Shown: piece after piece, positions 17,864 to 49,313 of the stretch
How the letters are laid out: each line of letters begins with the position of its first letter
Numbering within the stretch: the first letter of the stretch is position 1
Program-made: the position numbers and the translations under genes
Assembly: GCA_036344075.1 (NCBI GenBank)
Contig: JAYYUJ010000008.1
Coordinates: 27,730-91,729, forward strand
Reading direction: 5' to 3'
Origin: Pseudomonadota bacterium
GTDB lineage: Bacteria > Pseudomonadota > Gammaproteobacteria > Pseudomonadales > UBA7434
Length of the DNA: 64,000 nucleotides
The notes under the pieces: model-generated
What the model saw: only the letters and a program-made list of their open reading frames with translations
Database searches by the model: none
What the model was told of the DNA's origin: nothing

Positions 17864-19420
17864 ATGTTAATTCGCCATAAAACTATCACTTTTTTAGCAA
17901 CCATTAGCAGCTTTTTGATGGCTGCAAATAATAGTTTCGGGCAATCCAGTCATATGGCTGAACAGCAAATTCACCCGCCTGCAAGTAGTTATCTAGCGGC
18001 TGAGCATGCCTTACAGACAAATCTCGCTCGAAAAGATAACCGTCACCGTGCAAGTGGCATCATCTTGTTTGTCGGTGATGGCATGAGCATTGCAACCGTT
18101 ACGGCTGGGCGTATCTATATTGGGCAAAAATCGGGGGCTAATGGAGAGGAGCACAATTTATCTTTTGAACGATTCCCCGCGGTTGGCTTGGCTAAAACCT
18201 ATAATACTAACCAACAGACGCCCGACTCAGCAGGTACTATGACCGCTTTGATCACGGGTGAAAAAACCAAAGCAGGAGTGCTTAGTATGGCTGCAAAAGT
18301 TGCGCGAGCTGACACAAATGCCTGTGGTAAGGAACAACTCACCACCCTATTTGAGCTCGCTGAAGACAGAAACTGGGCGACAGGCATTGTTACCACAACT
18401 TCCGTCACCCATGCCACCCCCGCAGCAGGCTTTGCCCATACTCCTGAACGAAACTGGGAGAATGATTCAGAGTTACCTATTGAGGCAAAAACTAAAGGTT
18501 GTCGCGACATCGCGCGGCAATTTGTTGAGTTTAGCCACGGCGATGGTATCGATGTATTACTGGGCGGCGGCCGTAGCCACTTTTTACCCAAGGACTCTAT
18601 GCATGCTAATGGCAAGCGTGAGGATGGTATTAATTTAATTTCTCAGTGGCAACAGCGCAATCCAAACGGTCGCTACTTTCATAATCGTCGTCAATTAATC
18701 GCTTATCAAAATAGAGATACCGATAAAATTTTAGGTTTATTTTCCGATTCACATATGGACTTTGAAGCCGACCGTGATAGTAGCGGCCAACCCAGTCTCA
18801 GCGAAATGGTTAACGTGGCGATTAATCAATTGCAAAAAAGTAAACGCTTTCTATTAGTGGTCGAAGCCGGTCGAATTGATCATGCGCATCACGTGGGAAA
18901 TGCCTATCGCGCACTAGAAGACCTGCACGCTTTTGATCAAGCAATAGAATTAGCGTATGACAAAGTGAATCTCAAAGAGACATTAATGATTGTGACAGCC
19001 GATCATAGCCATACCTTAACACTGGCGGGCTACCCTACGCGCGGCAACCCTATTTTAGGTTTCGTGACAGGTAACGATAAATCAGGTGAAGCAGAAACCT
19101 CGCCTAGCCTTGCCGCCGACAAGAAACCCTACACAACCCTAAGTTATGCTAACGGCCCCGGTTACTATAATCAGCCCAGCGATCCAGAAAATCCTTATGC
19201 GCGATTTAATAATATTGGCCAGTCAACACGGCAAACCACGCTTGAAGACAACCCAGAGGCAGAACACTACCATCAAGAAGCCGGCGTCCCCTTAGCCACT
19301 GAAACTCATGCAGGTGACGATGTTGCTGTATATGCACAAGGTCCTTGGGCGCACTTACTGAATGGCGTTATGGAACAACATTATATATTTCATGTGATGA
19401 AATATGCTGGGGCACTGTAA
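17864..19420 (+). CDS. Alkaline phosphatase (PhoA family), secreted
   Basis: There is a signal peptide, the nucleophile motif DSAGTMTAL (D-S-A), and metal ligands GRIDHAHH and TADHSHT. Confidence 0.9.
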   Translation: MLIRHKTITFLATISSFLMAANNSFGQSSHMAEQQIHPPASSYLAAEHALQTNLARKDNRHRASGIILFVGDGMSIATVTAGRIYIGQKSGANGEEHNLSFERFPAVGLAKTYNTNQQTPDSAGTMTALITGEKTKAGVLSMAAKVARADTNACGKEQLTTLFELAEDRNWATGIVTTTSVTHATPAAGFAHTPERNWENDSELPIEAKTKGCRDIARQFVEFSHGDGIDVLLGGGRSHFLPKDSMHANGKREDGINLISQWQQRNPNGRYFHNRRQLIAYQNRDTDKILGLFSDSHMDFEADRDSSGQPSLSEMVNVAINQLQKSKRFLLVVEAGRIDHAHHVGNAYRALEDLHAFDQAIELAYDKVNLKETLMIVTADHSHTLTLAGYPTRGNPILGFVTGNDKSGEAETSPSLAADKKPYTTLSYANGPGYYNQPSDPENPYARFNNIGQSTRQTTLEDNPEAEHYHQEAGVPLATETHAGDDVAVYAQGPWAHLLNGVMEQHYIFHVMKYAGAL

Positions 19421-23290: not shown

Positions 23291-24624
23291 ATGTCTGCTC
23301 AATCATCCACTCATTACCCCGTTTGGACTCACCGTTGGACCTATATTTTAGCCACCACTGGCGCCGCAGTTGGGCTGGGTAATATTTGGAAATTTCCTTA
23401 TATTGCTGGCGAAAATGGCGGCGGCGCCTTTGTTCTCATGTATCTGATCTGCATTATGATGTTTGGCGTGCCAATTATGATGGCTGAGGTACTGCTTGGT
23501 CGAAAAGGTCGCGCCAACCCAGTGCACGCCATGCTGTCGCAGGCACGTGCCGCCGGCGCCAGTAAGCTGTGGGCATTTATTGGTCTGATGGGCGTGGCCG
23601 CCGGGATCATGATTCTCATGTATTACAGCGTGGTGGCTGGCTGGTCGCTAGAATATGTGTTTCAAAGTGCCAGTTCAGCCTATATCGGTCAAGACGCCCA
23701 AATTATCGCTGACAGATTCGGCTATTTAGCCCAAGATAGCGACCGGCAACTGCTATGGCATAGCGTCTTTATTCTTGCCACGGCAACAATTGTTGGACTT
23801 GGGGTTACACGTGGCATTGGCAATGCCGTGAATATTTTAATGCCCATTTTATTTGCTTTGCTTTTGCTCTTGCTATGGTACGCCTTCAAAAACGGCGAGT
23901 TTCAGAAGGGCTTAAATTTTATGTTTGCCGCTGATTTTAGCAAACTGACCAGTCAATCGGTGTTAACCGCCATGGGCCATGCTTTTTTTACCCTTAGCTT
24001 AGGCATGGGAACCGTCATGGTGTACGGCTCTTATATGTCAAACGATCAATCAATTTCAAACGCAGTGATCGTTGTTGCCGGGCTAGATACGTTGATCGCC
24101 TTAATTGCCGGCATGGCTATTTTTCCACTAGTGTTTGCCAGTGGTCTGGCGCCAGGCTCTGGGCCAGGCTTATTATTTGAAACGCTGCCTATTGCCTTTT
24201 CAGGCATGTGGGGCGGTACCTTCTTTGGAACAGGATTTTTTGTTTTAGTTGCAATTGCAGCGTTAAGCTCATCGATCTCACTCATCGAGCCCGGTATCGC
24301 ATGGCTAGAAAAGCTCGGCAGTTCGCGCTTGTTGGCACTGTCGGTCTAAGCATATTATGCTGGCTAGGCGGTGTGGCAAGTATTTACTCGAGCGAGGTCT
24401 TTAATCGCTTGGACTATTTAACTGCCAATATTATGTTACCGCTAGGCGGGCTTTTAATTGCGCTGTTTGTGGGTTGGAAGGTCGGCTATACCCGGGTGCG
24501 TAAAGAGATCGATGGCTTATCGACTGGCTTATTTAACCTATGGTTTATTAGCTTGCGTTTTATCGCTCCGGCCGGCGTTTTAGTCATCTTCTATCAAGGT
24601 ATTAAAGCCAGTCTAGGTAGCTAA
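23291..24624 (+). pseudogene. Na+-dependent transporter, SNF/NSS family, interrupted by a frameshift
   Basis: The NSS signature GLGNIWKFPYIAGENGGGAF is at the N-terminus. The reading frame ends at 24349, while the C-terminal TM segments continue in another frame (ORF 24208-24624). The frames switch near GAAAAGCT at about 24308-24320. Confidence 0.7.
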
Positions 24625-25514
24625 GTTGTCTCTGGGTGCGTAACACGGCAACAATCAAGCCACGATTGAAGTCCCCGTGAAGGAAACTTTTTATTGTGCG
24701 TGACAAAGTAGAATTGCCTGCTCATATCGCGATGTTTCAGCTTTAGTGGCACCAAGCTGCCTCTTTTAAAGGCATCGGCTAGCGGAATAACGGACAAACA
24801 GCCGAGCCCTAGGCCCGCTTCAACAGCCCGTTTAATGGCCTCGGTATGCTCAAACTCCAAGTGCACATCCAGTTCATTGATTAGGCCGTGCATCGCGCGA
24901 TCAAAGGTTTGCCGTGTGCCTGAACCATGCTCACGCAGAATCCATTGGGCATTAGTTAAGTCATCATCGGTTAAAATTTTTTTATTCGCATAAGGGTGTT
25001 CTGGCGAACAAAAAATCATTAACTCATCATAACACCATGGATGCACATGAAGATCTGGGTGTGAATACTCGCCCTCTATTAAACCGACGTCCAGCTCAAA
25101 ATCCAGCACTTGCTTGGCAATATGTGCGGTATTAGCAACATGTAAGCGAACACTCACTTCAGGATAATCCCTTTTAAAACTGGCAATAATCGGTATTGCG
25201 ATGTAATTGCCGATGGTCAGCGTTGCACCAACTCGTAATCGCCCCGCGGGCATTTGCTGCTGCAAAACAACCTCGACATCCTCTGCGCCCGAGATTAAGG
25301 CCTCAGCTAAGGGGCGAAGCGATTGACCCAGCATATTGAGCCGCAATCGTTTTCCCACTCGATCAAATAGTTGCGCATCATAGCGCTCCTCTAAATCGCG
25401 GAGTGCGCCACTAGCGGCAGACTGAGACATGGATAAACTCTCAGCCGCTCGGCTTATATTTTGATAATGCGCAGTGGCAAGAAATACTTGAAGTTGACGT
25501 AGGGTAAATTTCAC
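24621..25514 (-). CDS. LysR-family transcriptional regulator (FinR-like by position, divergent from fpr)
   Basis: It has an N-terminal wHTH (LRQLQVFLATAHYQNISRAAESLSMSQSAAS) and a LysR substrate-binding domain. The divergent arrangement with fpr matches the Pseudomonas finR-fpr layout. Confidence 0.85.
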   Translation of the reverse strand: MKFTLRQLQVFLATAHYQNISRAAESLSMSQSAASGALRDLEERYDAQLFDRVGKRLRLNMLGQSLRPLAEALISGAEDVEVVLQQQMPAGRLRVGATLTIGNYIAIPIIASFKRDYPEVSVRLHVANTAHIAKQVLDFELDVGLIEGEYSHPDLHVHPWCYDELMIFCSPEHPYANKKILTDDDLTNAQWILREHGSGTRQTFDRAMHGLINELDVHLEFEHTEAIKRAVEAGLGLGCLSVIPLADAFKRGSLVPLKLKHRDMSRQFYFVTHNKKFPSRGLQSWLDCCRVTHPETT

Positions 25515-25594
25515 TTTCTGATGCCTCTAGGTTAAGCCAGATGAATGACAGCACCGTATATTTACTGAAATTCACATTGTTTTACTAAATGATA

Positions 25595-25630
25595 ATAGAT
25601 ATTATTTGATAAATAGTATCAGATATCTAT
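25595..25630. promoter_or_regulatory. Nested dyad symmetries in the LysR/fpr divergent intergenic region (candidate operator)
   Basis: An outer inverted repeat ATAGATAT (25595-25602) / ATATCTAT (25623-25630) encloses the perfect dyad TGATA-aatag-TATCA (25607-25621). Confidence 0.3.
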
Positions 25631-25753: not shown

Positions 25754-26527
25754 ATGACTAAGTTAATGACCGAAACCGTGACCGACGTCCATCATTGGAA
25801 CAACAGTTTATTTAGTTTTAAAACTACCCGAGATGCTGGCTTTCGCTTTAAAAATGGTCACTTCGTAATGGTTGGCCTTGAACATGAAGGAAAACCCCTA
25901 TTACGAGCTTACAGCATCGCAAGTGCGAATTACGAAGATGAACTAGAATTTCTTAGCATTAAAGTGCCAAATGGTCCACTGACATCGAAGTTACAGCATT
26001 TAAAAGTTGGTGATGAAGTATTAATCGGTAAAAAACCTCTGGGCACTCTGGTCACCGATGAAATGCTACCTGGAAAAAACTTATATCTACTAGGGACTGG
26101 TACTGGCTTAGCCCCTTTTATGAGTATTATCAAAGACTTTGAGGTTTATGAGCAATTCGATAAAATCATTCTCGCTCACGGGGTCAGAGAGGTATCTGAA
26201 TTGGCGTACAGCGATTACATTGAGAATGAACTGCCCCAGCACGAATATTTTGGTGAAATGGTACGTGAAAAACTGCTTTACTACCCTACTGTTACTCGAG
26301 AACCTTATAAAAATAATGGTCGTTTAACCGACCTTATGACTAGCGGTAAATTATTTCTTGACCTTGGTCTGCCAAAGCCAAGTGTAGAGGATGATCGATT
26401 TATGCTCTGTGGCAGTCCCAGTATGCTCAAAGACATGTGCGCCATCTTGGATGAGCGAGGATTTAATGAGGTGCGCAGCGGCAACCAAGGCCACTATGTG
26501 ATTGAGCGAGCCTTTGTCGAAGGTTAA
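25754..26527 (+). CDS. fpr: Ferredoxin--NADP+ reductase
   Basis: The 257-aa product has FAD-binding RAYSIAS and NADP-binding LLGTGTGLAPF, with a bacterial Fpr-type C-terminus. Confidence 0.92.
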   Translation: MTKLMTETVTDVHHWNNSLFSFKTTRDAGFRFKNGHFVMVGLEHEGKPLLRAYSIASANYEDELEFLSIKVPNGPLTSKLQHLKVGDEVLIGKKPLGTLVTDEMLPGKNLYLLGTGTGLAPFMSIIKDFEVYEQFDKIILAHGVREVSELAYSDYIENELPQHEYFGEMVREKLLYYPTVTREPYKNNGRLTDLMTSGKLFLDLGLPKPSVEDDRFMLCGSPSMLKDMCAILDERGFNEVRSGNQGHYVIERAFVEG

Positions 26528-28124: not shown

Positions 28125-29003
28125 TTAAGGCCCGCTCATAATTAAAATCCCAGCCGCCGGCAGGGCGGCCGAGCGATCAATCACACTATTAGGAACTGTC
28201 AACGCACCAATTGCTACACCACATTCATCGGCCACTAAACCATTATTTAACAGTACCTTCACCGGTGGTGAGTCAATGTATTTTTGTTGTTCACTGTTGC
28301 CGGCGACCGTATCAGAAAATAATTGCATCTCAATCAAATATGCCCCTACGGTGGGTGAACCGGTGTGACCAATGCCGGGAACGGTACAGTCGCCCATGAC
28401 GCCTTCAGAATTTTTTCCTTCAAGACAAAAATCAAGATGGGCATGAATAGCATCACCTGAGGTCACGCCCGCCGCCTGTTCTATAGGGGCCTCTAATGGG
28501 CCTTCAACCCCTGCACCTGACCAAATTGTACCCTCTGCATAAAAAGCATTCTCTTCAGCCGTGCCATTAATCACAACATCGGGTGGTATTGCACCAAAAT
28601 AACGAACCCGCTCGCCGTTAGGTGAATCATCTAGCCAACGTTGCTCATCTTTATCCCAAAAACGTAGCGAGCCAAGTGCGCGAAACCACAGCACCTCACC
28701 ACCGAGGAAATCCCCTGCCTTAACCACCCAACCAGGATCATCGGTTTTATGCGGACCGCCAGCAAAATCACCAAAATCGGCCGGCACAACCGTTCTACCA
28801 GTGCTCGCTTCGGATGGAAACTGACCGCTCTCATCAATCAGTAGTGAGCCGCCGTCTGTTCCAGCGGGATCAACATCGATGATAACATCAAAATGGCCGA
28901 AAGCATTACAGGTCGTAATCCCTTGTGCATAACTCTTTAGCACCGCCGTTGATAAAAACAGGCAGCTCACAAGTGTTAAATTGATGCCGTATTTATTAAT
29001 CAT
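28125..29003 (-). CDS. Secreted protein, paralogue 1 of an unrecognised family (H-x-H-L-D-F motif); last gene of the TBDR operon
   Basis: A signal peptide (MINKYGINLTLVSCLFLSTAVLKSYA/QG) follows the ATG at 29003, one nt after the receptor stop (TAAtATG). It shares ordered motifs with the products of 32928-33704 and 33834-34526 (ADFGDF, KTDDPGW, ALGSLRFWD..W, IHAHLDF, GAYLIEM, NNG). The ORF-track start at 29024 is probably an over-extension. Confidence 0.8.
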   Translation of the reverse strand: MINKYGINLTLVSCLFLSTAVLKSYAQGITTCNAFGHFDVIIDVDPAGTDGGSLLIDESGQFPSEASTGRTVVPADFGDFAGGPHKTDDPGWVVKAGDFLGGEVLWFRALGSLRFWDKDEQRWLDDSPNGERVRYFGAIPPDVVINGTAEENAFYAEGTIWSGAGVEGPLEAPIEQAAGVTSGDAIHAHLDFCLEGKNSEGVMGDCTVPGIGHTGSPTVGAYLIEMQLFSDTVAGNSEQQKYIDSPPVKVLLNNGLVADECGVAIGALTVPNSVIDRSAALPAAGILIMSGP

Positions 29004-29004
29004 A

Positions 29005-31314
29005 TTAAAATTGATACCGAACACCGAACACTATTTCTCTGCCAGGCTCTGGGGTAAAGTTTCTTAAAAAAGACGTTGATTTTCGAATATCTTCATCCAA
29101 TAAATTTTTCATCTGTAAAAAAACAATCATTTCTTGATGAAAGGGACCGTCAAAATGAAGAATGTAAGACGCATAGGCATTGAGTAGCTTATAGGCATCT
29201 GTTGGTACTTCATTATCGCCAATATTTTTCTGTGCAGCGACAAAATTGTAACGCAACTCCGAATAGAAGAGGCCGTTCCCCCACTGAAAGCCAAGCCCTC
29301 TGCGGGCCGGCGGCATCCTCGGTAAGTCCTCGCTGCCGGTCAGCCTTCCTCGAACATGATCAGCAAATAACTCTATTTGAAATTCACCACCTCGAACGTC
29401 GATAGGCGGTAATGTCCACTGCCATTCATAACCGGTCAGCGTTGCATCATGCTGCTGATAATCAAAGACAGCAATGCATTCTTCTAATCGAACACAGGCA
29501 TTACGGAAAACGTTATCAGAGGTATCAAACAATCCATTGATCGCTCTTTTTTTTTGATAAATAAAATCATCTGCTTCGGTATAAAAGATGGCGCTGCTCA
29601 TATCACCAAAAGCACCTTGCCACTCCCAGCGCAAATCAATGCCCTGAAACTTTTCAGCCTCAGGTGGAGAATCATTCAATTGACTATCAAACAGCAATAA
29701 GCCGATATCATATGAACGTGTCGCCAAGTGTGGGCCTAGTGAGAGTAATTCTTGTATTTCAGGCACTCGCTGTGCCGAATTTAATCCAAATACTAAACGC
29801 TGTTGATCGGATACATCCACGCTTAACGCTGAGGAAAAAGTATAGCTTTGATAGCTAATCGGCTCATGCATAAACTGGGTATTGTAGGGCAATAATCCAG
29901 CAGTTAACTGTCGCTGTAATATCTCTTGCCACTCATAGCGACAACCTAACTCAAACAGGCCTATGGCTAATGGAAATTGATCATAGAAGAAAACACCGAT
30001 CGAGCGCTGATCCGCTGCTGGAATAAAATCCTCACCGCCACCTAGTGAGCGCATATTCTCTGCAGAAAACGCGCGATCTACCCACTGTAGCCCCATCTTG
30101 CCGCTATGCTGTGTGTTAAAACGATGCAGTAAGTGATGATTGATTTCAGCTTTAACTTCAAACACATCATTGATAAACCGAGTGCCGTTTATAAATTTTT
30201 TTGTTACTGGGTCTTGCTCAAACTCAAGGTGCTGATATTTAATGTTTCCTATCGTTAAGCGTACGTCTTTTAAGCTAGGATTACTAATCTTATAACCGAA
30301 CTTAAATAGATGACGCTCCTGCTCCAAATCGATACGAACTCTCGACTGAATCACAATATTTTCGCCAACGGGGTGGCTATGACTGTGCCCCGGCGAATCC
30401 GCTGGCTCGGTATGCGCACCTGGCGGGATGCCATACTCACTGTTAATCATCGTGCTTGAACCGCCAATAAAAAAATCATCATCGACATAACTTAACGCCA
30501 ATGAACCGCTATCGGTATCTGAATCCGTATTTAATACCGTGCCAAAAGTATTATCCGAATTGCTGATAGCAAATACTTGCTCGATAGCCTGCTCTTCAAT
30601 GGCTAGCGCAGGAATGCTCATATCTTCAGCGCTTCTCGTAAAGCCATCAACCTGAAAAACCCACTTTCCCATTTCGGTTTTAAGCTTAGAAATGGCAGTT
30701 TCACGATGATGGTCGTTGTTTAATTCTTTTCTAAGCTCGAAGACTGAAGACAAAGATTGATTATCTAAGGCTTCAGCAATTCGCCCATTAAGCACCTCAA
30801 CCGTGCCACCCACCGCATTATTCCCATGCAAAACCGTCGCAGGACCTTTGAGTACCTGAATACTTTTAGCCAAGGCCGGCTCTATCGCCGTCGCATGATC
30901 AGGACTAATAGAGGAAGCATCCCAAGCTCCGACACCATCTTCACTAAGACGCACACGTACACCAGAGAGACCGCGCAATACAGGCAGACCAACGCCTGGG
31001 CCATAAGAAGCATTGTGCACCCCCAGTTCATTGGCCAACGTATCACCTAAAGTACCGCCTTGTTTACTGAGCAGTTCATCATCCGACAGCTCAATCGTAC
31101 TCAAACCTAAAGCCGTTTTTTGCTCTTGCTTTTGAGCATTAATCGTCACTTCTTCCATCGCGTTTTCAGCGGTCGTCATTGAAGAAAAAAAAGCGGCAAT
31201 GCAAATAGCAATGGATACACCATGGCTTAATCGCGGCGGTAGAAATGAAAGTGAGAAGATCTGCTCTAGTTGGATATTCGGCATAAGCATTGGACTCAAA
31301 ATAGTGCTCGACAA
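29005..31314 (-). CDS. TonB-dependent outer-membrane receptor with His-rich loop (ZnuD-like by context)
   Basis: A signal peptide is followed by a plug region (EEVTINA..., LRGLSG, VLKGPATVLHGNNAVGG) and a C-terminal beta-barrel ending in the terminal Phe (GVRYQF). There is an internal HTEPADSPGHSHSHP segment. The start may be one of the internal Met codons (31290 or 31284), which would remove the overlap with the upstream gene. Confidence 0.9.
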   Translation of the reverse strand: MSSTILSPMLMPNIQLEQIFSLSFLPPRLSHGVSIAICIAAFFSSMTTAENAMEEVTINAQKQEQKTALGLSTIELSDDELLSKQGGTLGDTLANELGVHNASYGPGVGLPVLRGLSGVRVRLSEDGVGAWDASSISPDHATAIEPALAKSIQVLKGPATVLHGNNAVGGTVEVLNGRIAEALDNQSLSSVFELRKELNNDHHRETAISKLKTEMGKWVFQVDGFTRSAEDMSIPALAIEEQAIEQVFAISNSDNTFGTVLNTDSDTDSGSLALSYVDDDFFIGGSSTMINSEYGIPPGAHTEPADSPGHSHSHPVGENIVIQSRVRIDLEQERHLFKFGYKISNPSLKDVRLTIGNIKYQHLEFEQDPVTKKFINGTRFINDVFEVKAEINHHLLHRFNTQHSGKMGLQWVDRAFSAENMRSLGGGEDFIPAADQRSIGVFFYDQFPLAIGLFELGCRYEWQEILQRQLTAGLLPYNTQFMHEPISYQSYTFSSALSVDVSDQQRLVFGLNSAQRVPEIQELLSLGPHLATRSYDIGLLLFDSQLNDSPPEAEKFQGIDLRWEWQGAFGDMSSAIFYTEADDFIYQKKRAINGLFDTSDNVFRNACVRLEECIAVFDYQQHDATLTGYEWQWTLPPIDVRGGEFQIELFADHVRGRLTGSEDLPRMPPARRGLGFQWGNGLFYSELRYNFVAAQKNIGDNEVPTDAYKLLNAYASYILHFDGPFHQEMIVFLQMKNLLDEDIRKSTSFLRNFTPEPGREIVFGVRYQF

Positions 31315-32891
31315 TTAGATCTAAAATCTAAGGCCTGAGTATAGTCATAGCCTATGGAGACACCATTACGACCGGCTAGCAATGCGGGCGATTCGACTGA
31401 TAATCGAAAGTCATTATTTAATTGGTTAATAAACAAGGGGTCAGTATTTTTTTGCGAATCGACATCCGGCCTAGTGCTGAGCTGAGGATGAGATTCAACA
31501 TTTTGCCAATTATCCATATCTCGAAAAACATCTTCTAATGGGCCGCCTGCATCTAATCGCCAGCTCAGATAATCTGCTGGCGCAAAATATAAATTATAAT
31601 CACTGTACGCAATACTGTTTTCTAATGAAGAGTTTTCCGGCGACCGTGTCACCAATAGATTCACGTCAAATCCCTCTAAGGTTGGATGAAAGATATTATT
31701 AAATATCTCAACATTTTTTACCCCCGAAATATCAATCACAATCGAAGCAGTATCAATGAAATTATTATTGAATAAACAGAATGATTCTGACTGGTATTCA
31801 CTGCCTCCTAGATCAAGCAAAATCGCAGAATCCGCTTTTTCAGAGTCTTCAGGCATACGAAATAAATTACCCGACACATCTACAGACTTGAATAGCCCTG
31901 TTTTAATTTCATCATTTGCTGAGGTATCGCTTATTTGGTTATGGAAGTTAACGGGCTGTTTGACTTGCGTGAAATTATTATTATGTATTTGAATATTCGC
32001 TACGGGCTCTTCAATATTGAGCGAATACGCAGGACTACCCAACCCCTGCGCATTAATAATGACGCCACTGTCTAAATTGGTAAATGTATTACCATCGATC
32101 ACGATGTTAGACAAGCCGCGGCCAGTTCTAATCAATTCATTCTCTTCGTTGGATAACTGGCTAAAGACATCGCTAATTTCATTATTCCGAATGACTGTAT
32201 CACTGACCCCCATTAGCCGAATACCGCCAACATACTTTTCTCCATAAACGTGATGGATACGGTTGCCCTCTAAGGTGATATTGTTAGTTTCGCAGGCGCC
32301 GTTGACTGAACTACTTATGCCGGCCTCATTAACCTTTGTAATTTCGATATTACGTACAATGATGTGACTCACACAGTCTAACAGCAAGCCCAAGGTGATA
32401 TCATTCCTGTTACTCGCAAAGCTTTCTTGCTGCTGATTAATCACAGGCCGTGAAGTGACATCACCCTCAATAATAATAGGTGCAGAGATTGTGCCGCTGT
32501 TCGTTACCCGGTATCCGCGGAGTTTTTTTAAAAGAACGCCATCAGCATCGAATACCTGCTTAATAATATTATCAGTATGGTAAGGATGCCCTTCATTGTG
32601 TTGGACCACTAGCACATCGCCAGGTCTCAGTTGATCCAGTGCGTATTGAAGCGATTGAAAGGGCAAAGTGATGCCGTCGTTAGTATCGTCACCACTGACA
32701 TTATTGACGAATAATCTGGCGCCAGTTACCGGGCCGCCTGAATTCACTACGGTCTGTGTGCCGCCGCTGACATCGCCTCCACAACCACTCAAGATAACCG
32801 CAGGCAGGATTAAAGCTCCTATCATTAAGGCCCAAATAGCCTTTCTAAAACAAGTCTTGATTATTCGATAAATAGCAGATGGAGTCATCAC
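31296..32891 (-). CDS. Right-handed parallel beta-helix repeat lipoprotein
   Basis: The lipoprotein signal peptide carries the lipobox ILSGC. The N-terminal pattern is FVNNVSGDDTNDG..PFQSLQYALDQLRPGD. Recurring beta-helix-type repeats follow (GNRIHHV, RNNEISDV, DGNTFTNL, HNNNFTQV, FNNNFID). Confidence 0.8.
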   Translation of the reverse strand: MMTPSAIYRIIKTCFRKAIWALMIGALILPAVILSGCGGDVSGGTQTVVNSGGPVTGARLFVNNVSGDDTNDGITLPFQSLQYALDQLRPGDVLVVQHNEGHPYHTDNIIKQVFDADGVLLKKLRGYRVTNSGTISAPIIIEGDVTSRPVINQQQESFASNRNDITLGLLLDCVSHIIVRNIEITKVNEAGISSSVNGACETNNITLEGNRIHHVYGEKYVGGIRLMGVSDTVIRNNEISDVFSQLSNEENELIRTGRGLSNIVIDGNTFTNLDSGVIINAQGLGSPAYSLNIEEPVANIQIHNNNFTQVKQPVNFHNQISDTSANDEIKTGLFKSVDVSGNLFRMPEDSEKADSAILLDLGGSEYQSESFCLFNNNFIDTASIVIDISGVKNVEIFNNIFHPTLEGFDVNLLVTRSPENSSLENSIAYSDYNLYFAPADYLSWRLDAGGPLEDVFRDMDNWQNVESHPQLSTRPDVDSQKNTDPLFINQLNNDFRLSVESPALLAGRNGVSIGYDYTQALDFRSNCRALF

Positions 32892-32927
32892 AGTTTTTAA
32901 TGCCTGGCCTAATAAAGAGTAACGAAG

Positions 32928-33704
32928 CTACCTTACTATAGATTTACGCGTCTTCTCGTAGTAAGCAAAAATAAACAGTAAACTCGCTAATAGAAATAAT
33001 GCGCCATTCGGCATGGGAACAGCAACAGCCTCTGGCTCTGGCTCTGGCTCTGGCTGAGACGTGAGTGCATTAATGGCTTGAGCAAAGGCAGCCTCACTCA
33101 TTTGATAATTGAATGCAATTCGCACAGGCTCTGAGGTTAAGTGGGTCTCAATAGTGCCACCAGGTGTATCGGTCCCAAAAAACTCTATATCAATCATATA
33201 GGCGCCAATTGTAGGATCGCCTGAGCCTAGATTTTCGATAAAGAAATCTATGTGCTGGTGTAAAGAGCCATTGCCATTAATTTGAGCAATAGCGCCCAGT
33301 GGATTGCTAACGCCTGAGTCAGTGATGATCGAATAGGAATACACCACATCTCGAATTTTCACTCTTTCCTGATCAGCTACCTCGTTAACCCATGCTTGAC
33401 CATTCCAAAACCACAACGAGCCCACTACACGGTAGTAAAGAAAGCTATTTGGGCTAAAAGTGTTAGTCAATGACTGGAAACCAGGCTGATCAGTTTTATT
33501 TGGATCACTAAAAGATCCAAAAGTATTTGGAAATAAAGACTTTCCTGTTGTTAAGTCAGTGATGATAGGGATATTGGTTTCAGAATTTATTTCGCTTGCT
33601 GCCACCTGGTTATCAACCAATGTAAGCCATATGTCGGCATGTTGAGCATTACTTAACGGCACGAGGCTGACAAAAAATGCCATTGCAAACAATGAAATCT
33701 TCAT
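32928..33704 (-). CDS. Secreted protein, paralogue 2 of the unrecognised family, with (PE)4 linker and PEP-CTERM-like tail
   Basis: The signal peptide MKISLFAMAFFVSLVPLSNA/Q follows the ATG at 33704. Family motifs are present (NKTDQPGF, VGSLWFWNGQAW, LHQHIDF, GAYMIDI). The C-terminus is VPMPNGALFLLASLLFIFAYYEKTRK. The ORF-track extension to 33818 would translate through a terminator hairpin. Confidence 0.8.
   Translation of the reverse strand: MKISLFAMAFFVSLVPLSNAQHADIWLTLVDNQVAASEINSETNIPIITDLTTGKSLFPNTFGSFSDPNKTDQPGFQSLTNTFSPNSFLYYRVVGSLWFWNGQAWVNEVADQERVKIRDVVYSYSIITDSGVSNPLGAIAQINGNGSLHQHIDFFIENLGSGDPTIGAYMIDIEFFGTDTPGGTIETHLTSEPVRIAFNYQMSEAAFAQAINALTSQPEPEPEPEAVAVPMPNGALFLLASLLFIFAYYEKTRKSIVR
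33032..33055 (-). repeat. Hexanucleotide tandem repeat (CTGGCT)x4 encoding a (PE)n linker
   Basis: Four perfect tandem CTGGCT units read on the minus strand as QPEPEPEPEA, immediately before the C-terminal anchor of paralogue 2. Confidence 0.9.
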
Positions 33705-33750
33705 GAATTTGAGAAAATTTTTTGACACTTCTTTACCAATAGATTCAAGA

Positions 33751-33790
33751 AATAAAGAAAAAACCCGAAGCACAATACTTCGGGTTTTTA
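33751..33790 (-). terminator. Rho-independent terminator after the His-rich protein gene
   Basis: The minus strand reads AAACCCGAAG-tattgtg-CTTCGGGTTT followed by TTTTTCTTTATT: a 10-bp GC-containing stem with a T tract, about 45 nt after the TAG at 33834-33836. Confidence 0.8.
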
Positions 33791-33833
33791 TTCTAGCCGC
33801 AATCGCTAAAGAGATCACGCTTTCAAGGTGCTA

Positions 33834-34526
33834 CTAGGCTTTAAGACGGCGTCCTAGTAATAAAGAACCTAAACCAGAAGCTAGGAATAACCAAGCCGCT
33901 GGTATTGGAACTGCTGATACCGGACCAGCGTCGAAGGATGCCTCATCCATACCATTGTTAAAAACGATGAAGATAGATTCAGAAGACCAACCATTAGCTG
34001 ATGACAACGCTTGATCAGAGTAACCCTCGAGAATAAATTCAATTAAGAAGGCCTGGGCTGACGCACTTGGATCAATGAAAAATTCAAGGTGCTCATGAAC
34101 ACCACCTTCATCATCTGACATGCCAATTAGACCCAAAGAAAAAGGTTGTACTCCATAATCATGGCTTTCTAGTGTTAGTAAACTGTTAGTTGAGGCAGTC
34201 CAGCTAGAGCCATCCCATTCTTTGAGGTTGCTTTGCATATTGTAAGCAAGGTAATTGTATGCCCCAAATGGGCCATCTTCTAGAATAATACCAGGCTCAT
34301 CTGTCCCGTATGCACCAAGCTCGAAATCGTTAAAGTCTGCCTCAAATAATTTAGCTTCGCCTGCTAAAGCTTCGCCTGTTTCAACGTGTATTTCAAAGCC
34401 TGTCTCAGCTGCAGAAATAATATCGCCTCCATGACCTTCATGGCCGCCATGCCCATGATCGTCTTCTTCAGCATTTGCTGAAAAAGCCAATACAGAAAAC
34501 AGGCCTAGTAGAAGTAAATTTTTCAT
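33834..34526 (-). CDS. Secreted His-rich protein, paralogue 3 of the unrecognised family, with VPLPA-CTERM-like anchor
   Basis: The signal peptide is MKNLLLLGLFSVLAFSANA/EE. The mature N-terminus is EEDDHGHGGHEGHGGD. Family motifs are present (GTDEPG, VHEHLEF, AFLIEF, NNG). The C-terminus is VPIPAAWLFLASGLGSLLLGRRLKA. GGAGA sits upstream of the ATG. Confidence 0.85.
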   Translation of the reverse strand: MKNLLLLGLFSVLAFSANAEEDDHGHGGHEGHGGDIISAAETGFEIHVETGEALAGEAKLFEADFNDFELGAYGTDEPGIILEDGPFGAYNYLAYNMQSNLKEWDGSSWTASTNSLLTLESHDYGVQPFSLGLIGMSDDEGGVHEHLEFFIDPSASAQAFLIEFILEGYSDQALSSANGWSSESIFIVFNNGMDEASFDAGPVSAVPIPAAWLFLASGLGSLLLGRRLKA

Positions 34527-34587
34527 TTTATTGATTCTCCAGATTTTTTTGAGTAAATATTTTTAGTTTTTGTCAATCATAACTGGG

Positions 34588-34618
34588 AATGATACAACAT
34601 ATCATTTGGGTGTTTCAA
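34588..34618 (-). promoter_or_regulatory. Zur-box-like palindrome overlapping a sigma-70-type promoter of the His-rich protein gene
   Basis: The minus strand reads TTGAAA-(18 nt)-TATCAT. The dyad AATGATA-tgttg-TATCATT (34588-34606) covers the spacer and the -10. It matches about 16 of 21 positions of the gammaproteobacterial Zur consensus (AAATGTTATAnTATAACATTT) as I recall it. It lies 62-80 nt upstream of the ATG, and zur is the next gene upstream. Confidence 0.6.
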
Positions 34619-34747: not shown

Positions 34748-35209
34748 TTATTTTTGACACTTGCCGCACAAACCGTGCAACTCAAGCTGTTGATTATGCA
34801 TTGAAAAACCGGATTTCAGTATATCAGCCCTCAACTGCTCCAAAGTATGCTTTTGGATTCCGGCCTCGGACACCGACTGACAATTATCACAAATAAGAAA
34901 TTGAGGTAAATCATGCGCATGATTGCAGTTGATGTGCTCGCAAGCCGTGTATTTATTAACCGAATTTAATCGGTGAGCGAGCGTTTCTTCAACCAGAAAA
35001 TTCAGCATGCGATAGGCCGACATCGCGGTAAGCGACTCACTGTATCGCGCATGATACAAGTCGATCAACTCATAGGCCGATACCGGTGATGGAGCCTCTA
35101 ATAGCAAGGCCAATGCTCGTTTACGTTTTACAGTCAACCTCACACCAGCATCGCGGCATATCAACTCGGCATTTTGCAAAGTCTTATCAGTTGCAGCGGA
35201 TTGATTCAT
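34748..35209 (-). CDS. zur: Zinc uptake regulator (Fur family)
   Basis: The 153-aa product is collinear with E. coli Zur (AE.IC...GVRLT..R...L.LL, SAY.L.DL, Y..C, FLICD.C, HGLCG.C), including the C-x-x-C pairs. Confidence 0.85.
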   Translation of the reverse strand: MNQSAATDKTLQNAELICRDAGVRLTVKRKRALALLLEAPSPVSAYELIDLYHARYSESLTAMSAYRMLNFLVEETLAHRLNSVNKYTACEHINCNHAHDLPQFLICDNCQSVSEAGIQKHTLEQLRADILKSGFSMHNQQLELHGLCGKCQK

Positions 35210-46229: not shown

Positions 46230-46330
46230 ATCTTAGGGGAGTCGCGGCGAAATACTGTGCCCAGAACTGTTTTACAACGTGCATATTTATGCACCCGAAT
46301 TTAAATTATTTAAACGGAGACCTATACACA

Positions 46331-47341
46331 ATGAAAGCAAAGTTAGAATATATTTGGTTAGACGGTTACTCGCCGACTCAAAGCCTACGCAGCAAAACAC
46401 AAGTCAGAGATAATTTCGGGGGTACACTTGATGAATGCCCAATGTGGTCTTTTGATGGTAGCTCAACGTTGCAAGCCGAAGGCAACTCATCGGATTGCTT
46501 ATTAAAGCCCGTTTTTATTTGCCCTGACCCTGATCGTAAAAATTCATACTTGGTCATGACCGAGGTCTTAAATGCTGACGGCACTCCGCATGCTACCAAT
46601 GGCCGTGCCACCATTGACGATGATGATGATGACTTTTGGTTTGGTTTCGAACAGGAGTATTTCCTCTGGGATATTGATACTAAATTACCTCCAGGCTTCC
46701 CGGCTAATGGTTATCCAGCGCCGCAAGGTCCTTACTACTGCTCAGTAGGTGCAGCTAATGCCTTTGGCCGTGGCTGTGTAGAAGACCACTTTGATCTTTG
46801 CCTAGATGCTGGCATTAATGTTGAAGGCATTAACGCTGAGGTCGCTGCTGGTCAATGGGAATTTCAGGTTTTTGCAAAAGGAGCCAAACGTGCCGGAGAT
46901 GAAACTTGGGTAGCGCGCTACTTGCTTGAAAGAACCGGCGAAAAGTATGGCTATGGAATCAACTACCATCCAAAACCGTTTGGCGAACTCGATTGGAACG
47001 GCTCAGGTATGCATGCCAACTTCTCAAATGGCGCCATGCGTGACTCAGGTGATGAAGCGGTCTTTACTAAAATTTGTGAAAACTTCGGCAAGAATATCGA
47101 ACGTCATATGAGCGTGTACGGAGCTGATAATGACCAGCGTCTAACCGGTAAACATGAAACTCAATCGATCGATGAATTCAGCTATGGTGTATCCGACCGT
47201 GGAGCGTCAATTCGTGTGCCTATTGGTACCGTTGAAGATGGCTGGAAAGGTCGCTTGGAAGATCGTCGCACTGCATCAAATGCTGACCCATACAAAGTAG
47301 CAGCAGCGATTATCAAAACCACTAAAGAAGCTTTAGCATAA
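46331..47341 (+). CDS. glnII: Glutamine synthetase type II (eukaryote-like GSII)
   Basis: The product is collinear with rhizobial GlnII (KLEYIWLDGY.PT, WSFDGSST.QAEG.SSDC.LKP, WFGFEQEYF, GYPAPQGPYYC, GINAEVA.GQWEFQ, DWNGSGMHANFS, RLTGKHET, DRGASIRVP). GGAGA precedes the ATG at 46331; the ORF-track start at 46289 is probably upstream of the true start. Confidence 0.9.
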   Translation: MKAKLEYIWLDGYSPTQSLRSKTQVRDNFGGTLDECPMWSFDGSSTLQAEGNSSDCLLKPVFICPDPDRKNSYLVMTEVLNADGTPHATNGRATIDDDDDDFWFGFEQEYFLWDIDTKLPPGFPANGYPAPQGPYYCSVGAANAFGRGCVEDHFDLCLDAGINVEGINAEVAAGQWEFQVFAKGAKRAGDETWVARYLLERTGEKYGYGINYHPKPFGELDWNGSGMHANFSNGAMRDSGDEAVFTKICENFGKNIERHMSVYGADNDQRLTGKHETQSIDEFSYGVSDRGASIRVPIGTVEDGWKGRLEDRRTASNADPYKVAAAIIKTTKEALA

Positions 47342-48104: not shown

Positions 48105-49313
48105 TTAATCGCGAGGCTGTAATATCAAGTGTTGCTTATCTTGGTCTAAATTAAATGCAAAATGTTTCAAAAAATTCATTCCCAGTAAGCCCTGGAATGC
48201 ACCGTTATTTTGACTAAACGCCATCACCACAAATTCAATATCACGCACCATGTATTCACCAATAGCGAAAGCTTCAAACCGATAAATTGGCGCATCGATT
48301 CTACCTCCAGCTGTATCTATGGTCGCGTGACGAACAAATTCTGGATTGAATTGATCTTTTTTTTGTTCAAAGAACCATTCAGATAATACTGAAATAGAAG
48401 CACCAGTATCAATCAACAAAATGATTTCATGACTATTTAACTGACCTTCAATCAAATAATGCGCTGACTGTTTAATTAAGGGGAACGTTGCTTTAATTAG
48501 ACTTAAGCGATTTAGCTCGTTCAAAAGTTTCTGGGCACGCTTGCCATAATAAGCATGACCAATGAGTGACTCTAAACGAAATATCGACTGCTGATATTGA
48601 CCAAGCTGAAAATATGCATCCGCGATTTCAAAGATATATAAATCATTACTTGGTTGATACCAAAGTAAATGCTCAAGCAGCTTAATTAATGTAGTCCAAT
48701 CACCGTTGCTTTTTAAAGTCCCTAACTGAGCTCTGATAATAGTATTCTTTTGACGCGAATAGATTTCATGCTCAACGCCAGATAACTGATCAACTAACCT
48801 AAACATCACATCGACCGCGTCAATTCTATTTTCTCGGCTAAACTGGTCAGTGGCTTTTATCCATTCTACATCAAAATCATCTGTGAAATGCGCTGACCAC
48901 ACACCTAAAAAAAGTAAGCCACGATCAACGTCCTTTGCTCCTAAACCTTTCTTAATCTCTGCTAGCCATTGCCCTTTCAATTGAGATGCTTGATCTGGGT
49001 AATAGCCTGATAAGCTTTCCCATTCAGCCACTAAGCGATCAAATTGATTCGATTCAAAAAGCTGCTGTAAGTATTTAAGTTCTGGCTCTAATCTTAGATG
49101 AGTAAAGGGTTGCTTAGATTTAGACATGAACCCAGTTTTGGTTTGCGAATCTAGAGTGACTGAACTAGGAAAGTCGTTCACCAGCTGATTATTCAGATCA
49201 TCACCCAGCGCTTGTGCAGAAGCAGGCTGCTGTTCTTGGCTAGTAACGAAAAAAATCAGATTAGCCAATAGTGATAGGGCTAATAAAAAAAAGATAAAGC
49301 GTGATCTGAGCAT
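48105..49313 (-). CDS. Membrane-anchored retropepsin-like aspartic protease with helical-repeat N-terminal region
   Basis: It has an N-terminal TM/signal segment. The C-terminal domain carries LLIDTGASISVL (D-T-G active site) and GLLGMNFL, typical of bacterial clan AA retropepsin-like proteases. Confidence 0.55.
   Translation of the reverse strand: MLRSRFIFFLLALSLLANLIFFVTSQEQQPASAQALGDDLNNQLVNDFPSSVTLDSQTKTGFMSKSKQPFTHLRLEPELKYLQQLFESNQFDRLVAEWESLSGYYPDQASQLKGQWLAEIKKGLGAKDVDRGLLFLGVWSAHFTDDFDVEWIKATDQFSRENRIDAVDVMFRLVDQLSGVEHEIYSRQKNTIIRAQLGTLKSNGDWTTLIKLLEHLLWYQPSNDLYIFEIADAYFQLGQYQQSIFRLESLIGHAYYGKRAQKLLNELNRLSLIKATFPLIKQSAHYLIEGQLNSHEIILLIDTGASISVLSEWFFEQKKDQFNPEFVRHATIDTAGGRIDAPIYRFEAFAIGEYMVRDIEFVVMAFSQNNGAFQGLLGMNFLKHFAFNLDQDKQHLILQPRD

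What the first reader, a model, noticed from the sequence alone, without database searches (positions are those of the whole stretch)
28125..34526. Three-member paralogous family with ordered conserved motifs including H-x-H-[LI]-[DE]-F
The three secreted proteins share the same motif order. First comes F-x-(A/N)-(D/T)-F-(G/N)-(D/S)-F, then (K/G)-T-D-(D/Q/E)-P-G. Next is a Trp-containing block (ALGSLRFWDKDEQRW / VVGSLWFWNGQAW / SNLKEWDGSSW). The H-x-H motif follows: IHAHLDF at 28428-28445, LHQHIDF at 33243-33260 and VHEHLEF at 34080-34097. The last two shared blocks are GAY(L/M)I(E/D) or AFLIEF, and then (V/I)xxNNG. I do not recognise this as a named domain. An invariant His-x-His-x-Asp/Glu is a plausible metal site, and the context (Zur, a His-rich tail, a TBDR) fits that reading.
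Basis: seen in the sequence. Interest (0 to 1): 0.75.

Follow-up and report, generated by a model that had tools for sequence, protein, structure and literature searches.

The report
Uncharacterised zinc-starvation surface protein family
Three related exported proteins with an invariant His-x-His motif sit in a zinc-starvation (Zur-controlled) gene cluster around a ZnuD-like outer-membrane importer; they belong to a widespread, unnamed family that most likely captures zinc outside the cell, much as the recently described but unrelated protein ZepA does.

Summary
The three minus-strand ORFs (A 28125-29024, B 32928-33704/33818, C 33834-34526) are true paralogues (BLASTP 2e-23, 4e-12, 2e-6), and the motifs lie at the stated coordinates. 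No Pfam, NCBIfam or PDB sequence match exists. AlphaFold2 models are confident (pLDDT 90.7 and 88.9), and Foldseek finds only generic Ig-like sandwiches (TM <=0.35).

A profile search finds 831 family clusters. In 270 aligned members His-x-His is invariant (266/267, 267/267). The following acid is D/E in 84%. An N-terminal H-x-D is better conserved (Asp 224/227).

The context points to zinc. The Zur gene is adjacent, and a Zur-box-like palindrome overlaps the best -10 upstream of C and recurs in orthologous loci. In 15 of 15 evaluable genomes the order is small member, beta-helix lipoprotein, ZnuD-like TonB receptor, A-type member. Distant members, including autotransporter and PKD fusions, lie beside TonB receptors, Fur-family regulators, cobW, FolE2, ZrgA and Zip genes.

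The closest known analogue is ZepA. It is not detectably homologous once the PEP-CTERM tail is removed, yet true ZepA genes share clusters with this family in two loci.

My reading: a new family of Zur-regulated extracellular zinc-capture proteins feeding a ZnuD-like receptor.

The parts
34748..35209 (-). Zur (Fur-family zinc uptake regulator), 153 aa
   Evidence: PF01475 FUR 9e-10. NCBIfam Zur NF008646 scores 1.2e-26, the best of the Fur-family models but below the equivalog cut-off. Homologues lie next to the cluster in 11 of 16 genome loci.
34587..34607 (-). Zur-box-like palindrome AAATGATATGTTGTATCATTC, which overlaps the -10 of the best promoter-like site (-35 TTGAAA starting at 34618, -10 TATCAT ending at 34589)
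   Evidence: the same palindrome lies upstream of the first family gene in L004-L009 and L016. Related palindromes occur in L012/L013 (GTAATGTTGTAACGTTAC) and L017 (GTTATGTTATAACATAAC); the only match in the window with <=1 mismatch; 0.16 matches expected by chance at <=3 mismatches; promoter-like site with 10 of 12 matches.
33834..34526 (-). Paralogue C, 230 aa. Signal peptide (residues 1-19), His-rich tract HGHGGHEGHGG, H32..D35 (34422-34433), HEHLEF (34080-34097), VPLPA/PEP-CTERM-like tail (about 33837-33917)
   Evidence: Tail: TIGR03370 VPLPA-CTERM 14.8 bits and NF038129 19 bits, both below cut-off. AF2 pLDDT 88.9.
33749..33789 (-). Rho-independent terminator or attenuator directly after paralogue C (AAAAACCCGAAG...CUUCGGGUUUUUU)
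   Evidence: fold -26.2 kcal/mol, z = -2.9. Comparable hairpin plus T-run after the first family gene in L003, L004, L005, L008 and L010.
32928..33704 (-). Paralogue B, 258 aa from ATG 33704 (296 aa if read from GTG 33818). Signal peptide, mature N-terminus QHADIW (H-x-D at 33633-33641), HQHIDF (33243-33260), PEP-CTERM-like tail VPMP + TM + basic end
   Evidence: Orthologue N-termini and the terminator inside the 5' extension support the shorter start.
31296..32891 (-). Right-handed beta-helix lipoprotein (lipobox LSGC), 531 aa; conserved member of the cluster, role unknown
   Evidence: PF13229 Beta_helix 2.5e-6. The Microbulbifer orthologue hits PF22842 Pel9A-like_beta_helix. Syntenic in all 15 evaluable A-type loci.
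29005..31314 (-). ZnuD-like TonB-dependent receptor, 769 aa, with a His-rich segment PGHSHSHP
   Evidence: Plug and barrel domains. NCBIfam ZnuD NF038289 scores 2.7e-64, by far the best model but below the exception-level cut-off. The only PDB hit at E<=1e-10 is ZnuD 4RDR, 1.9e-28.
28125..29024 (-). Paralogue A, 299 aa (or 292 aa from ATG 29003); overlaps the TBDR stop. Signal peptide, Cys-containing N-terminal extension, H-F-D (28887-28895), HAHLDF (28428-28445), four conserved Cys, short conserved tail LPAAGILIMSGP without a TM helix or basic end
   Evidence: AF2 pLDDT 90.7, pTM 0.84. Lies immediately after the TBDR in every evaluable locus.

Best explanation
The cluster is a Zur-repressed zinc-acquisition module built around a ZnuD-like TonB-dependent receptor. 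A, B and C belong to an undescribed family of exported Ig-like beta-sandwich proteins that most likely bind Zn(II) outside the cell and pass it to the receptor.

Proposed sequence of events (steps marked shown or inferred):
1. When zinc is plentiful, Zur binds the palindrome over the -10 upstream of C. The box and its conservation are shown; binding is inferred.
2. Under zinc starvation C is transcribed strongly. A terminator after C limits read-through into B, the beta-helix lipoprotein, the receptor and A. The terminator is shown; the stoichiometry is inferred.
3. All three proteins cross the inner membrane by Sec (signal peptides shown). B and C carry PEP-CTERM-type tails and would be released to the surface or exopolymer layer by an exosortase (inferred; no exosortase gene lies in the window).
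4. Zinc is held by the invariant H-x-H on one beta strand together with the H-x-D at the first strand (inferred). In most PEP-CTERM-type members that H-x-D lies 1-4 residues from the predicted mature N-terminus. His-rich N-terminal tracts, as in C, would act as antennae (inferred).
5. The A-type protein is always encoded directly after the receptor. In other lineages an autotransporter-, PKD- or dockerin-anchored copy of the same domain takes that position. A is therefore read as the receptor-proximal, cell-bound member (inferred).
6. The receptor imports the metal (inferred).
For: Paralogy and motifs.

Family size and conservation:
- 831 clusters at E<=1e-3 and 362 at E<=1e-10.
- H-x-H 266/267 and 267/267, P-G 265/265, N-terminal Asp 224/227.

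Regulation:
- Zur gene adjacent.
- Zur-box-like palindrome overlapping the -10, conserved in orthologous loci.

Synteny and zinc-linked neighbours:
- Small member, beta-helix protein, TBDR, A-type member in 15 of 15 evaluable genomes; Zur nearby in 11 of 16.
- The receptor's only strong PDB and NCBIfam match is ZnuD.
- An autotransporter fusion lies directly after a TBDR, with FUR, two cobW genes, ZrgA and DUF3299+MacB.
- A Methylomonas PKD fusion lies after a TBDR, with FolE2, cobW and DUF1826.
- Further loci carry FUR plus TBDR or FUR plus Zip.
- True ZepA homologues share the cluster in L022 (3e-53) and L002.

His-rich features:
- His-rich N-terminal tracts occur in C orthologues.
- P0188 has three tandem domains, each preceded by an extreme His/Asp-rich linker.
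- The conserved His lies 1-4 residues after the predicted cleavage site in 72 of 102 PEP-CTERM-type members (heuristic).

Precedent: ZepA is a Zur-regulated PEP-CTERM exoprotein that binds about 1.5 Zn per monomer and supports zinc uptake (PMC10957091).
Against: - No experiment or metal-site prediction exists for this family.
- I could not measure whether H-x-H and H-x-D are close in the AF2 models, because no coordinates are returned.
- The acid in H-x-H-x-[DE] is not invariant (84% D/E).
- No exosortase gene lies in the 64-kb window, and the PEP-CTERM HMM scores are below cut-off.
- A lacks a complete sorting tail, so its location is unknown.
- The beta-helix lipoprotein has no assigned role.
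- One locus (L025) shows no TBDR within 6 kb.
- Conservation was examined only for the best-scoring 270 or so members.
Confidence: 0.68

Rival explanations
1. The family is a metal-dependent surface enzyme, and H-x-H plus Asp forms a catalytic site. It would free zinc from organic ligands, exopolymer or proteins, perhaps together with the beta-helix (pectate-lyase-like) lipoprotein, rather than carrying the metal itself.
For: - Invariant H-x-H plus Asp is also typical of catalytic metal sites (general knowledge).
- The beta-helix partner resembles polysaccharide lyases (PF13229, PF22842).
- Fusions to dockerin, PKD and autotransporter modules are common for surface enzymes.
Against: - The fold is a small Ig-like sandwich that matches no enzyme.
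- His-rich antennae and His/Asp-rich linkers fit metal capture better.
- The same clusters hold ZepA, a zinc binder.
Confidence: 0.12
2. The proteins are accessory or structural partners of the receptor, or pilin-like surface or adhesive proteins, with no direct metal role. They would be co-regulated only because of their gene position.
For: - Foldseek's best matches are pilins, PapD-like domains and lectin domains.
- PEP-CTERM proteins are generally linked to exopolymer and biofilm (PMC10957091).
Against: - The matches are weak (TM <=0.35).
- The invariant residues are His, His and Asp rather than hydrophobic core positions.
- The linkage to zinc-starvation genes holds across distant taxa and across different anchoring modes.
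Confidence: 0.08
3. The family handles another metal (Cu, Ni, Co or Mn) rather than zinc. For example, it could use a near-N-terminal His in a histidine-brace-like or X-His type site.
For: - The conserved His lies at position 1-2 of the predicted mature protein in many members.
- Fur-family regulators cannot be assigned a metal from sequence alone; the Zur model score is below cut-off.
Against: - The neighbours are classic Zur-regulon genes: FolE2, COG0523/cobW, ZrgA, DUF3299+MacB, Zip, ZepA.
- The receptor matches ZnuD. The copper-receptor model gives only a weak partial hit.
- The palindrome resembles gamma-proteobacterial Zur boxes (the resemblance is from my own knowledge of the consensus).
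Confidence: 0.07

Closest known systems
ZepA (All3515, UniProt Q8YRD3) of Anabaena PCC 7120 and its homologues (Sarasa-Buisan et al., PLoS Biol 2024, PMC10957091)
   Same: [quoted passage not shown]
- Mostly beta, Ig-like fold with no solved relative.
- His cluster that includes an H-x-H.
- His-rich mature N-terminus in some members.
- Neighbours are TBDRs, Fur-family genes and COG0523 genes.
- True ZepA genes lie in the same clusters as this family in L022 and L002.
   Different: - No detectable sequence homology once the PEP-CTERM tail is cut away: hhalign probability 0.5%, then 4% and 0.1%. The 96.6% comes from the tail.
- ZepA's site is H-X2-9-H-[FY]-H in the N-terminal third. Here H-x-H lies in the C-terminal half, with A/Q/E/T/S as the middle residue, and an H-x-D lies at the N-terminus.
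- This family also occurs with other anchors (autotransporter, PKD/dockerin, short A-type tail) and typically in 2-3 copies around a TBDR.
HasA-type haemophore with the HasR receptor (works-like comparison, from general knowledge)
   Same: A small secreted binding protein is encoded with its TonB-dependent receptor under a Fur-family repressor. A terminator after the carrier gene would give an excess of carrier over receptor.
   Different: Different ligand (haem), fold and secretion route (type I). No homology. Delivery to the receptor is not shown here.
ZnuD (Neisseria meningitidis, PDB 4RDR/4RDT/4RVW)
   Same: The cluster's receptor is its closest relative in the PDB (1.9e-28) and in NCBIfam (2.7e-64). 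It has a His-rich segment.
   Different: ZnuD is not known to work with dedicated partner proteins of this kind (my own knowledge). The score here is far below the NCBIfam cut-off (218 versus 950 bits), so this is a ZnuD-like receptor, not an orthologue.
ZinT/ZnuA His-rich periplasmic zinc binders and ZrgA (PF10986)
   Same: Zur-regulated zinc-binding proteins with His-rich flexible tracts. A ZrgA gene lies in one cluster that carries this family.
   Different: Unrelated folds and families. No Pfam hit to ZinT, ZnuA or ZrgA models. Those proteins are periplasmic, not PEP-CTERM or surface anchored.

Membership tests
ZepA family | Sequence homology to Anabaena ZepA (the paper used >=35% identity over >=75% coverage) | tested here: not met
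   hmmsearch of the family HMM against ZepA gives no significant hit. hhalign gives 0.5%. With PEP-CTERM tails removed it gives 4% and 0.1%.
ZepA family | H-X2-9-H-[FY]-H zinc motif in the N-terminal third | tested here: not met
   The family's H-x-H lies at residues 194-196 of 299 (A), 187-189 of 296 (B) and 144-146 of 230 (C). Its middle residue is A, Q or E.
ZepA family | N-terminal signal peptide plus C-terminal PEP-CTERM tail | tested here: inconclusive
   Signal peptides are present in all three. C and B have a VP[IM]P + TM + basic tail, but the HMM scores are below cut-off. A has only a 12-residue remnant.
ZepA family | Zur-site and zinc-gene neighbourhood | tested here: met
ZepA family | Zinc binding and a role in zinc uptake | not testable with these tools
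   Needs biochemistry and genetics.
PEP-CTERM / VPLPA-CTERM exosortase substrates (PF07589, TIGR03370) | C-terminal P-x-P motif, a hydrophobic helix and a basic cluster at the extreme C-terminus | tested here: inconclusive
   Visible in B and C. Homologues P0112 and P0114 carry PF07589. C's tail scores 14.8 bits against TIGR03370, cut-off 25.35. B's tail has no hit. A does not meet the feature.
PEP-CTERM / VPLPA-CTERM exosortase substrates (PF07589, TIGR03370) | An exosortase is encoded in the genome | not testable with these tools
   None among the window genes scanned. The rest of the genome is not available.
ZnuD-type zinc TonB-dependent receptors (NF038289), for the partner gene | Full-length match above the NCBIfam cut-off | tested here: not met
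   218 bits versus a cut-off of 950. It is the best model by a wide margin, and ZnuD is the only strong PDB hit. The receptor is ZnuD-like, not an orthologue.
Any Pfam, NCBIfam or PDB family, for the three paralogues | A significant profile or structural match | tested here: not met
   No hit at E<=1 in Pfam or NCBIfam apart from the tail. PDB profile searches give E>=0.65. Foldseek TM is <=0.24 for A and <=0.35 for C.

The most novel reading that the evidence does not exclude
The family is a modular, multi-copy protein zincophore system that explains how environmental ZnuD-type receptors obtain zinc. A freely released, His-tagged scavenger (C-type) and a second exported copy (B-type) would relay Zn to a receptor-docked copy. 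That docked copy is the A-type, or an autotransporter- or PKD-anchored equivalent in other lineages. A beta-helix surface lipoprotein would act as co-receptor. The metal site would be a new type, formed by a near-N-terminal H-x-D and an invariant H-x-H on an Ig-like sandwich.
Probability: 0.3. Interest if true: 0.8.

Novelty: new variant of a known kind. Interest (0 to 1): 0.62.

Why it matters
How Gram-negative bacteria outside the host-pathogen setting move zinc across the outer membrane is poorly understood. ZnuD-like receptors are common in Zur regulons, but what they bind is mostly unknown. ZepA (2024) was the first exoprotein shown to take part in zinc uptake.

This family is a second, sequence-unrelated and apparently larger group. 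It has at least 831 clusters at 50% identity, in marine Cellvibrionales/Pseudomonadales, Microbulbifer, methanotrophs and Roseateles-type Betaproteobacteria. Its genes are physically coupled to the receptor gene, and it comes with several kinds of surface anchor.

If it binds zinc, this gives a testable receptor-partner pair for zinc import, a candidate new metal-site architecture, and a marker for zinc limitation in marine metagenomes and metaproteomes.

Tried and rejected
1. Mean-field DCA on 254 aligned members (Neff about 199) to see whether the H-x-D strand pairs with the H-x-H strand. The top couplings were gap and indel artefacts, so the result is uninformative.

2. Measuring His-His distances in the AF2 models. 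This is not possible because the tool returns no coordinates.

3. Homology to ZepA. An apparent 96.6% hhalign hit was due to the shared PEP-CTERM tail and fell to 4% after trimming.

4. The search for related loci with the whole-family alignment failed because no stretch was conserved enough. It was repeated with A-type sequences only.

5. Cupin, metallo-beta-lactamase, carbonic-anhydrase or laccase-like H-x-H sites were considered. There is no profile or fold support; the laccase Foldseek hits have TM about 0.2.

6. A literature search for a prior description of this family found only the ZepA paper.

7. The glnA-like ORF (46289-47341) was suspected to be truncated. It looks like a complete short (about 350 aa) glutamine synthetase.

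Full report
**1. The observation**

The minus strand between 28.1 and 35.2 kb carries six consecutive genes:

| Gene | Coordinates | Size |
|---|---|---|
| Fur-family regulator (Zur) | 34748-35209 | 153 aa |
| Paralogue C | 33834-34526 | 230 aa |
| Paralogue B | 32928-33818 as an ORF; probably starts at ATG 33704 | 296 / 258 aa |
| Beta-helix lipoprotein | 31296-32891 | 531 aa |
| TonB-dependent receptor | 29005-31314 | 769 aa |
| Paralogue A | 28125-29024 | 299 aa |

A, B and C are real paralogues. BLASTP gives A-B 2e-23, B-C 4e-12 and A-C 2e-6. The H-x-H-[LI]-[DE]-F hexapeptides lie exactly at 28428-28445, 33243-33260 and 34080-34097. All three proteins begin with Sec-type signal peptides (SYA|Q, SNA|Q, ANA|E).

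**2. The family is unnamed**

- Pfam-A and NCBIfam give nothing at E<=1 for the three proteins, apart from a weak match of C's tail to PEP-CTERM-type models.
- Profile searches of the PDB sequences are empty: E>=0.65.
- AlphaFold2 models built on family alignments are confident. A has pLDDT 90.7 and pTM 0.84; C has pLDDT 88.9 and pTM 0.81. Both are almost all beta.
- Foldseek against the PDB finds nothing for A (best E 7e-3, TM about 0.2). For C it finds only generic Ig-like sandwiches (FimA, PapD-like, PsaA; TM <=0.35).
- All homologues with a source name are 'hypothetical protein', or are named after an appended PKD domain.

**3. Size and conservation of the family**

A profile search of 1.84 billion representative proteins found 831 clusters at E<=1e-3 and 362 at E<=1e-10. 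I aligned 270 members, namely the best 150 representatives plus 130 closer homologues, to the family HMM.

| Conserved position | Count |
|---|---|
| First His of H-x-H | 266/267 |
| Second His of H-x-H | 267/267 |
| P-G of TDxPG | 265/265 |
| Second Trp | 262/265 |
| N-terminal Asp | 224/227 |
| His one or two residues before that Asp | 190/225 |
| D/E two residues after H-x-H | 225/268 |

It is S or G in P0188. The N-terminal H-x-D is the better extra-ligand candidate.

In PEP-CTERM-type members that His usually lies 1-4 residues after the predicted signal-peptidase site (72 of 102 by a simple -3/-1 heuristic, most often ...AxA|QH.D). In A-type proteins a Cys-containing extension of about 10 residues precedes it.

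Some members, including C and its orthologues, carry His-rich tracts just before this motif. P0188 has three tandem domains, each preceded by linkers such as EDHDDHDDHDDHGHAGD.

I could not test whether these residues converge in space. The structure tool returns no coordinates, and a DCA attempt gave only gap artefacts.

**4. C-terminal anchors**

About half of the aligned members end in a PEP-CTERM-like tail (P-x-P, hydrophobic helix, basic end), as do B (VPMP...) and C (VPIPAAWLFLASGLGSLLLGRRLKA, closest to VPLPA-CTERM).

About a third are A-type. They end in a conserved short tail, (L/T/Q)P(A/G)(A/S)G(I/V)LI(M/I)xG(P/Y/E). It aligns with the first half of the PEP-CTERM tail but lacks the rest of the helix and the basic cluster.

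Other members are N-terminal domains of autotransporters, or are followed by PKD, dockerin or Flg_new_2 repeats. This choice of anchors argues that the domain works at the cell surface or beyond it.

**5. Genomic context**

In the window:
- The regulator scores best against the Zur model (1.2e-26, below cut-off).
- The receptor scores best by far against ZnuD in NCBIfam (2.7e-64, below cut-off) and in the PDB (4RDR, 1.9e-28). It contains a PGHSHSHP segment.
- Upstream of C, the palindrome AAATGATATGTTGTATCATTC (34587-34607) overlaps the -10 of the best promoter-like site in the region.
- A canonical rho-independent terminator follows C directly. This also shows that B's 5' extension is not coding.

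In 16 genome loci that hold A-type genes (Cellvibrionales and Pseudomonadales MAGs, two Microbulbifer species, Marinibactrum halimedae, a Chromatiaceae MAG):
- Every evaluable locus (15 of 15) has a small family member, a beta-helix homologue, a ZnuD-like receptor and the A-type gene directly after the receptor.
- 11 of 16 have a Zur homologue within 10 kb.
- The same palindrome, or a classical Zur-box variant such as GTTATGTTATAACATAAC in Marinibactrum, lies upstream of the first family gene in most loci.
- A terminator hairpin after that gene recurs in at least five loci.

At the distant end of the family:

| Member | Context |
|---|---|
| Autotransporter fusion P0172 | Directly after a TBDR; next to FUR, two more family members, two cobW genes, ZrgA and DUF3299+MacB |
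| Methylomonas PKD fusion P0196 | After a TBDR; preceded by DUF1826, an amidohydrolase, FolE2, cobW and a small family member |
| P0209 | Beside a TBDR and FUR |
| P0151 | Beside a TBDR and FUR |
| P0114 | Beside a TBDR and FUR |
| P0188 | Beside FUR and a Zip transporter |

These neighbours are typical Zur-regulon genes (established knowledge of Zur regulons; also PMC10957091).

**6. Relation to ZepA**

The only paper that combines PEP-CTERM, Zur and TonB-dependent transport is the description of ZepA (PMC10957091). ZepA is a Zur-regulated PEP-CTERM exoprotein of Anabaena. It binds about 1.5 Zn per monomer and supports zinc uptake. It has an Ig-like domain plus a novel domain, and an H-X2-9-H-[FY]-H site.

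Using the ZepA sequence printed in the paper's S2 Fig:
- The family HMM and hhalign find no homology.
- A 96.6% hhalign match between family profiles was carried by the shared PEP-CTERM tail. It fell to 4% when the tails were trimmed.
- Bona fide ZepA homologues do lie in two of the clusters that carry this family: L022 at 3e-53, and L002, where the gene is frameshifted.

[quoted passage not shown] These may be members of the present family (inference).

**7. Mechanism proposed**

The cluster is a Zur-repressed module in which exported family members capture Zn(II) and deliver it to the ZnuD-like receptor. The proposed site is H-x-H plus the N-terminal H-x-D, helped by His-rich tracts.
- C is the abundant, released scavenger (promoter-proximal, followed by a terminator, His-rich).
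- B is a second exported copy.
- A, or an anchored equivalent in other lineages, is the receptor-proximal copy.

Shown: paralogy, conservation, confident fold without a known relative, signal peptides, tails, Zur box, terminator, synteny and zinc-gene neighbourhoods.

Inferred: zinc binding, the identity of the ligands, exosortase processing, localisation, delivery to the receptor, and any role of the beta-helix lipoprotein.

Rivals (a surface metallo-enzyme, a non-metal accessory or adhesin, another metal) are less likely, for the reasons given in their entries.

**8. Verdict**

The family is not described in the databases or literature available here. In function it looks like a second, sequence-unrelated and more widespread counterpart of ZepA. 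I therefore rate it a new variant of a known kind, of moderate to high interest. The decisive experiments are straightforward.

Noticed in passing
window 33749-33789 (minus strand): A strong rho-independent terminator lies between paralogues C and B, inside the ORF extension that the mechanical ORF call gives to B. Similar hairpins follow the first family gene in L003, L004, L005, L008 and L010.
   Followed up: yes
window 28125-28160 (C-terminus of paralogue A) and about 90 orthologues: A conserved 12-residue C-terminal tail, LPAAGILIMSGP, looks like the first half of a PEP-CTERM signal without the rest of the helix or the basic end. Its sorting role is unknown. The same stretch of DNA can also form a GC-rich hairpin (28149-28173).
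   Followed up: partly
window 31296-32891: A beta-helix lipoprotein (lipobox LSGC; PF13229, Pel9A-like in orthologues) is syntenic with the receptor in all 15 evaluable loci. It has no obvious link to zinc. NosD-type beta-helix metal-handling proteins are a lead recalled from memory only.
   Followed up: partly
L022:11116-11973 and L002:834-1756: True ZepA homologues (phmmer 3e-53 and 7e-28) lie in the same Fur/TBDR clusters as members of the new family. The L002 copy is split over two frames.
   Followed up: partly
L019:3100-5604 and L024:962-3520: Large (834-852 aa) proteins with a Spermine_synth (PF01564) domain lie next to the TBDR and family genes in two unrelated loci. Proteins of about 725 aa with no Pfam hit take a similar place in L002 and L022.
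   Followed up: no
P0188 (locus L025:6126-8171): This protein has three tandem copies of the domain separated by extreme His/Asp-rich linkers, followed by a dockerin. It lies next to a FUR gene and near a Zip transporter.
   Followed up: partly
window 23291-24624: A sodium:neurotransmitter-symporter-like gene is split into two overlapping frames (23291-24349 and 24208-24624). This is a frameshift, a pseudogene or a sequencing error.
   Followed up: no
window 25587-25607: A second, weak match (3 mismatches) to the Zur-box pattern lies between the divergent LysR-type regulator (24621-25514) and a ferredoxin-NADP-reductase-like gene (25754-26527). It is probably unrelated to Zur.
   Followed up: no
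window 48105-49313: A 402-aa secreted protein with a retropepsin-like aspartyl protease domain (PF13975) lies in the lowest-GC patch of the window (38.5% at 48-50 kb).
   Followed up: no
window 17864-19420: A PhoA-type alkaline phosphatase (a zinc enzyme) is encoded about 9 kb from the cluster. The rest of the window is housekeeping (rho, ubiD, acs, efp/epmA/epmB, serB, parC/parE, bipA, his genes). No exosortase gene was found among the scanned ORFs, and there are no Rfam hits.
   Followed up: partly
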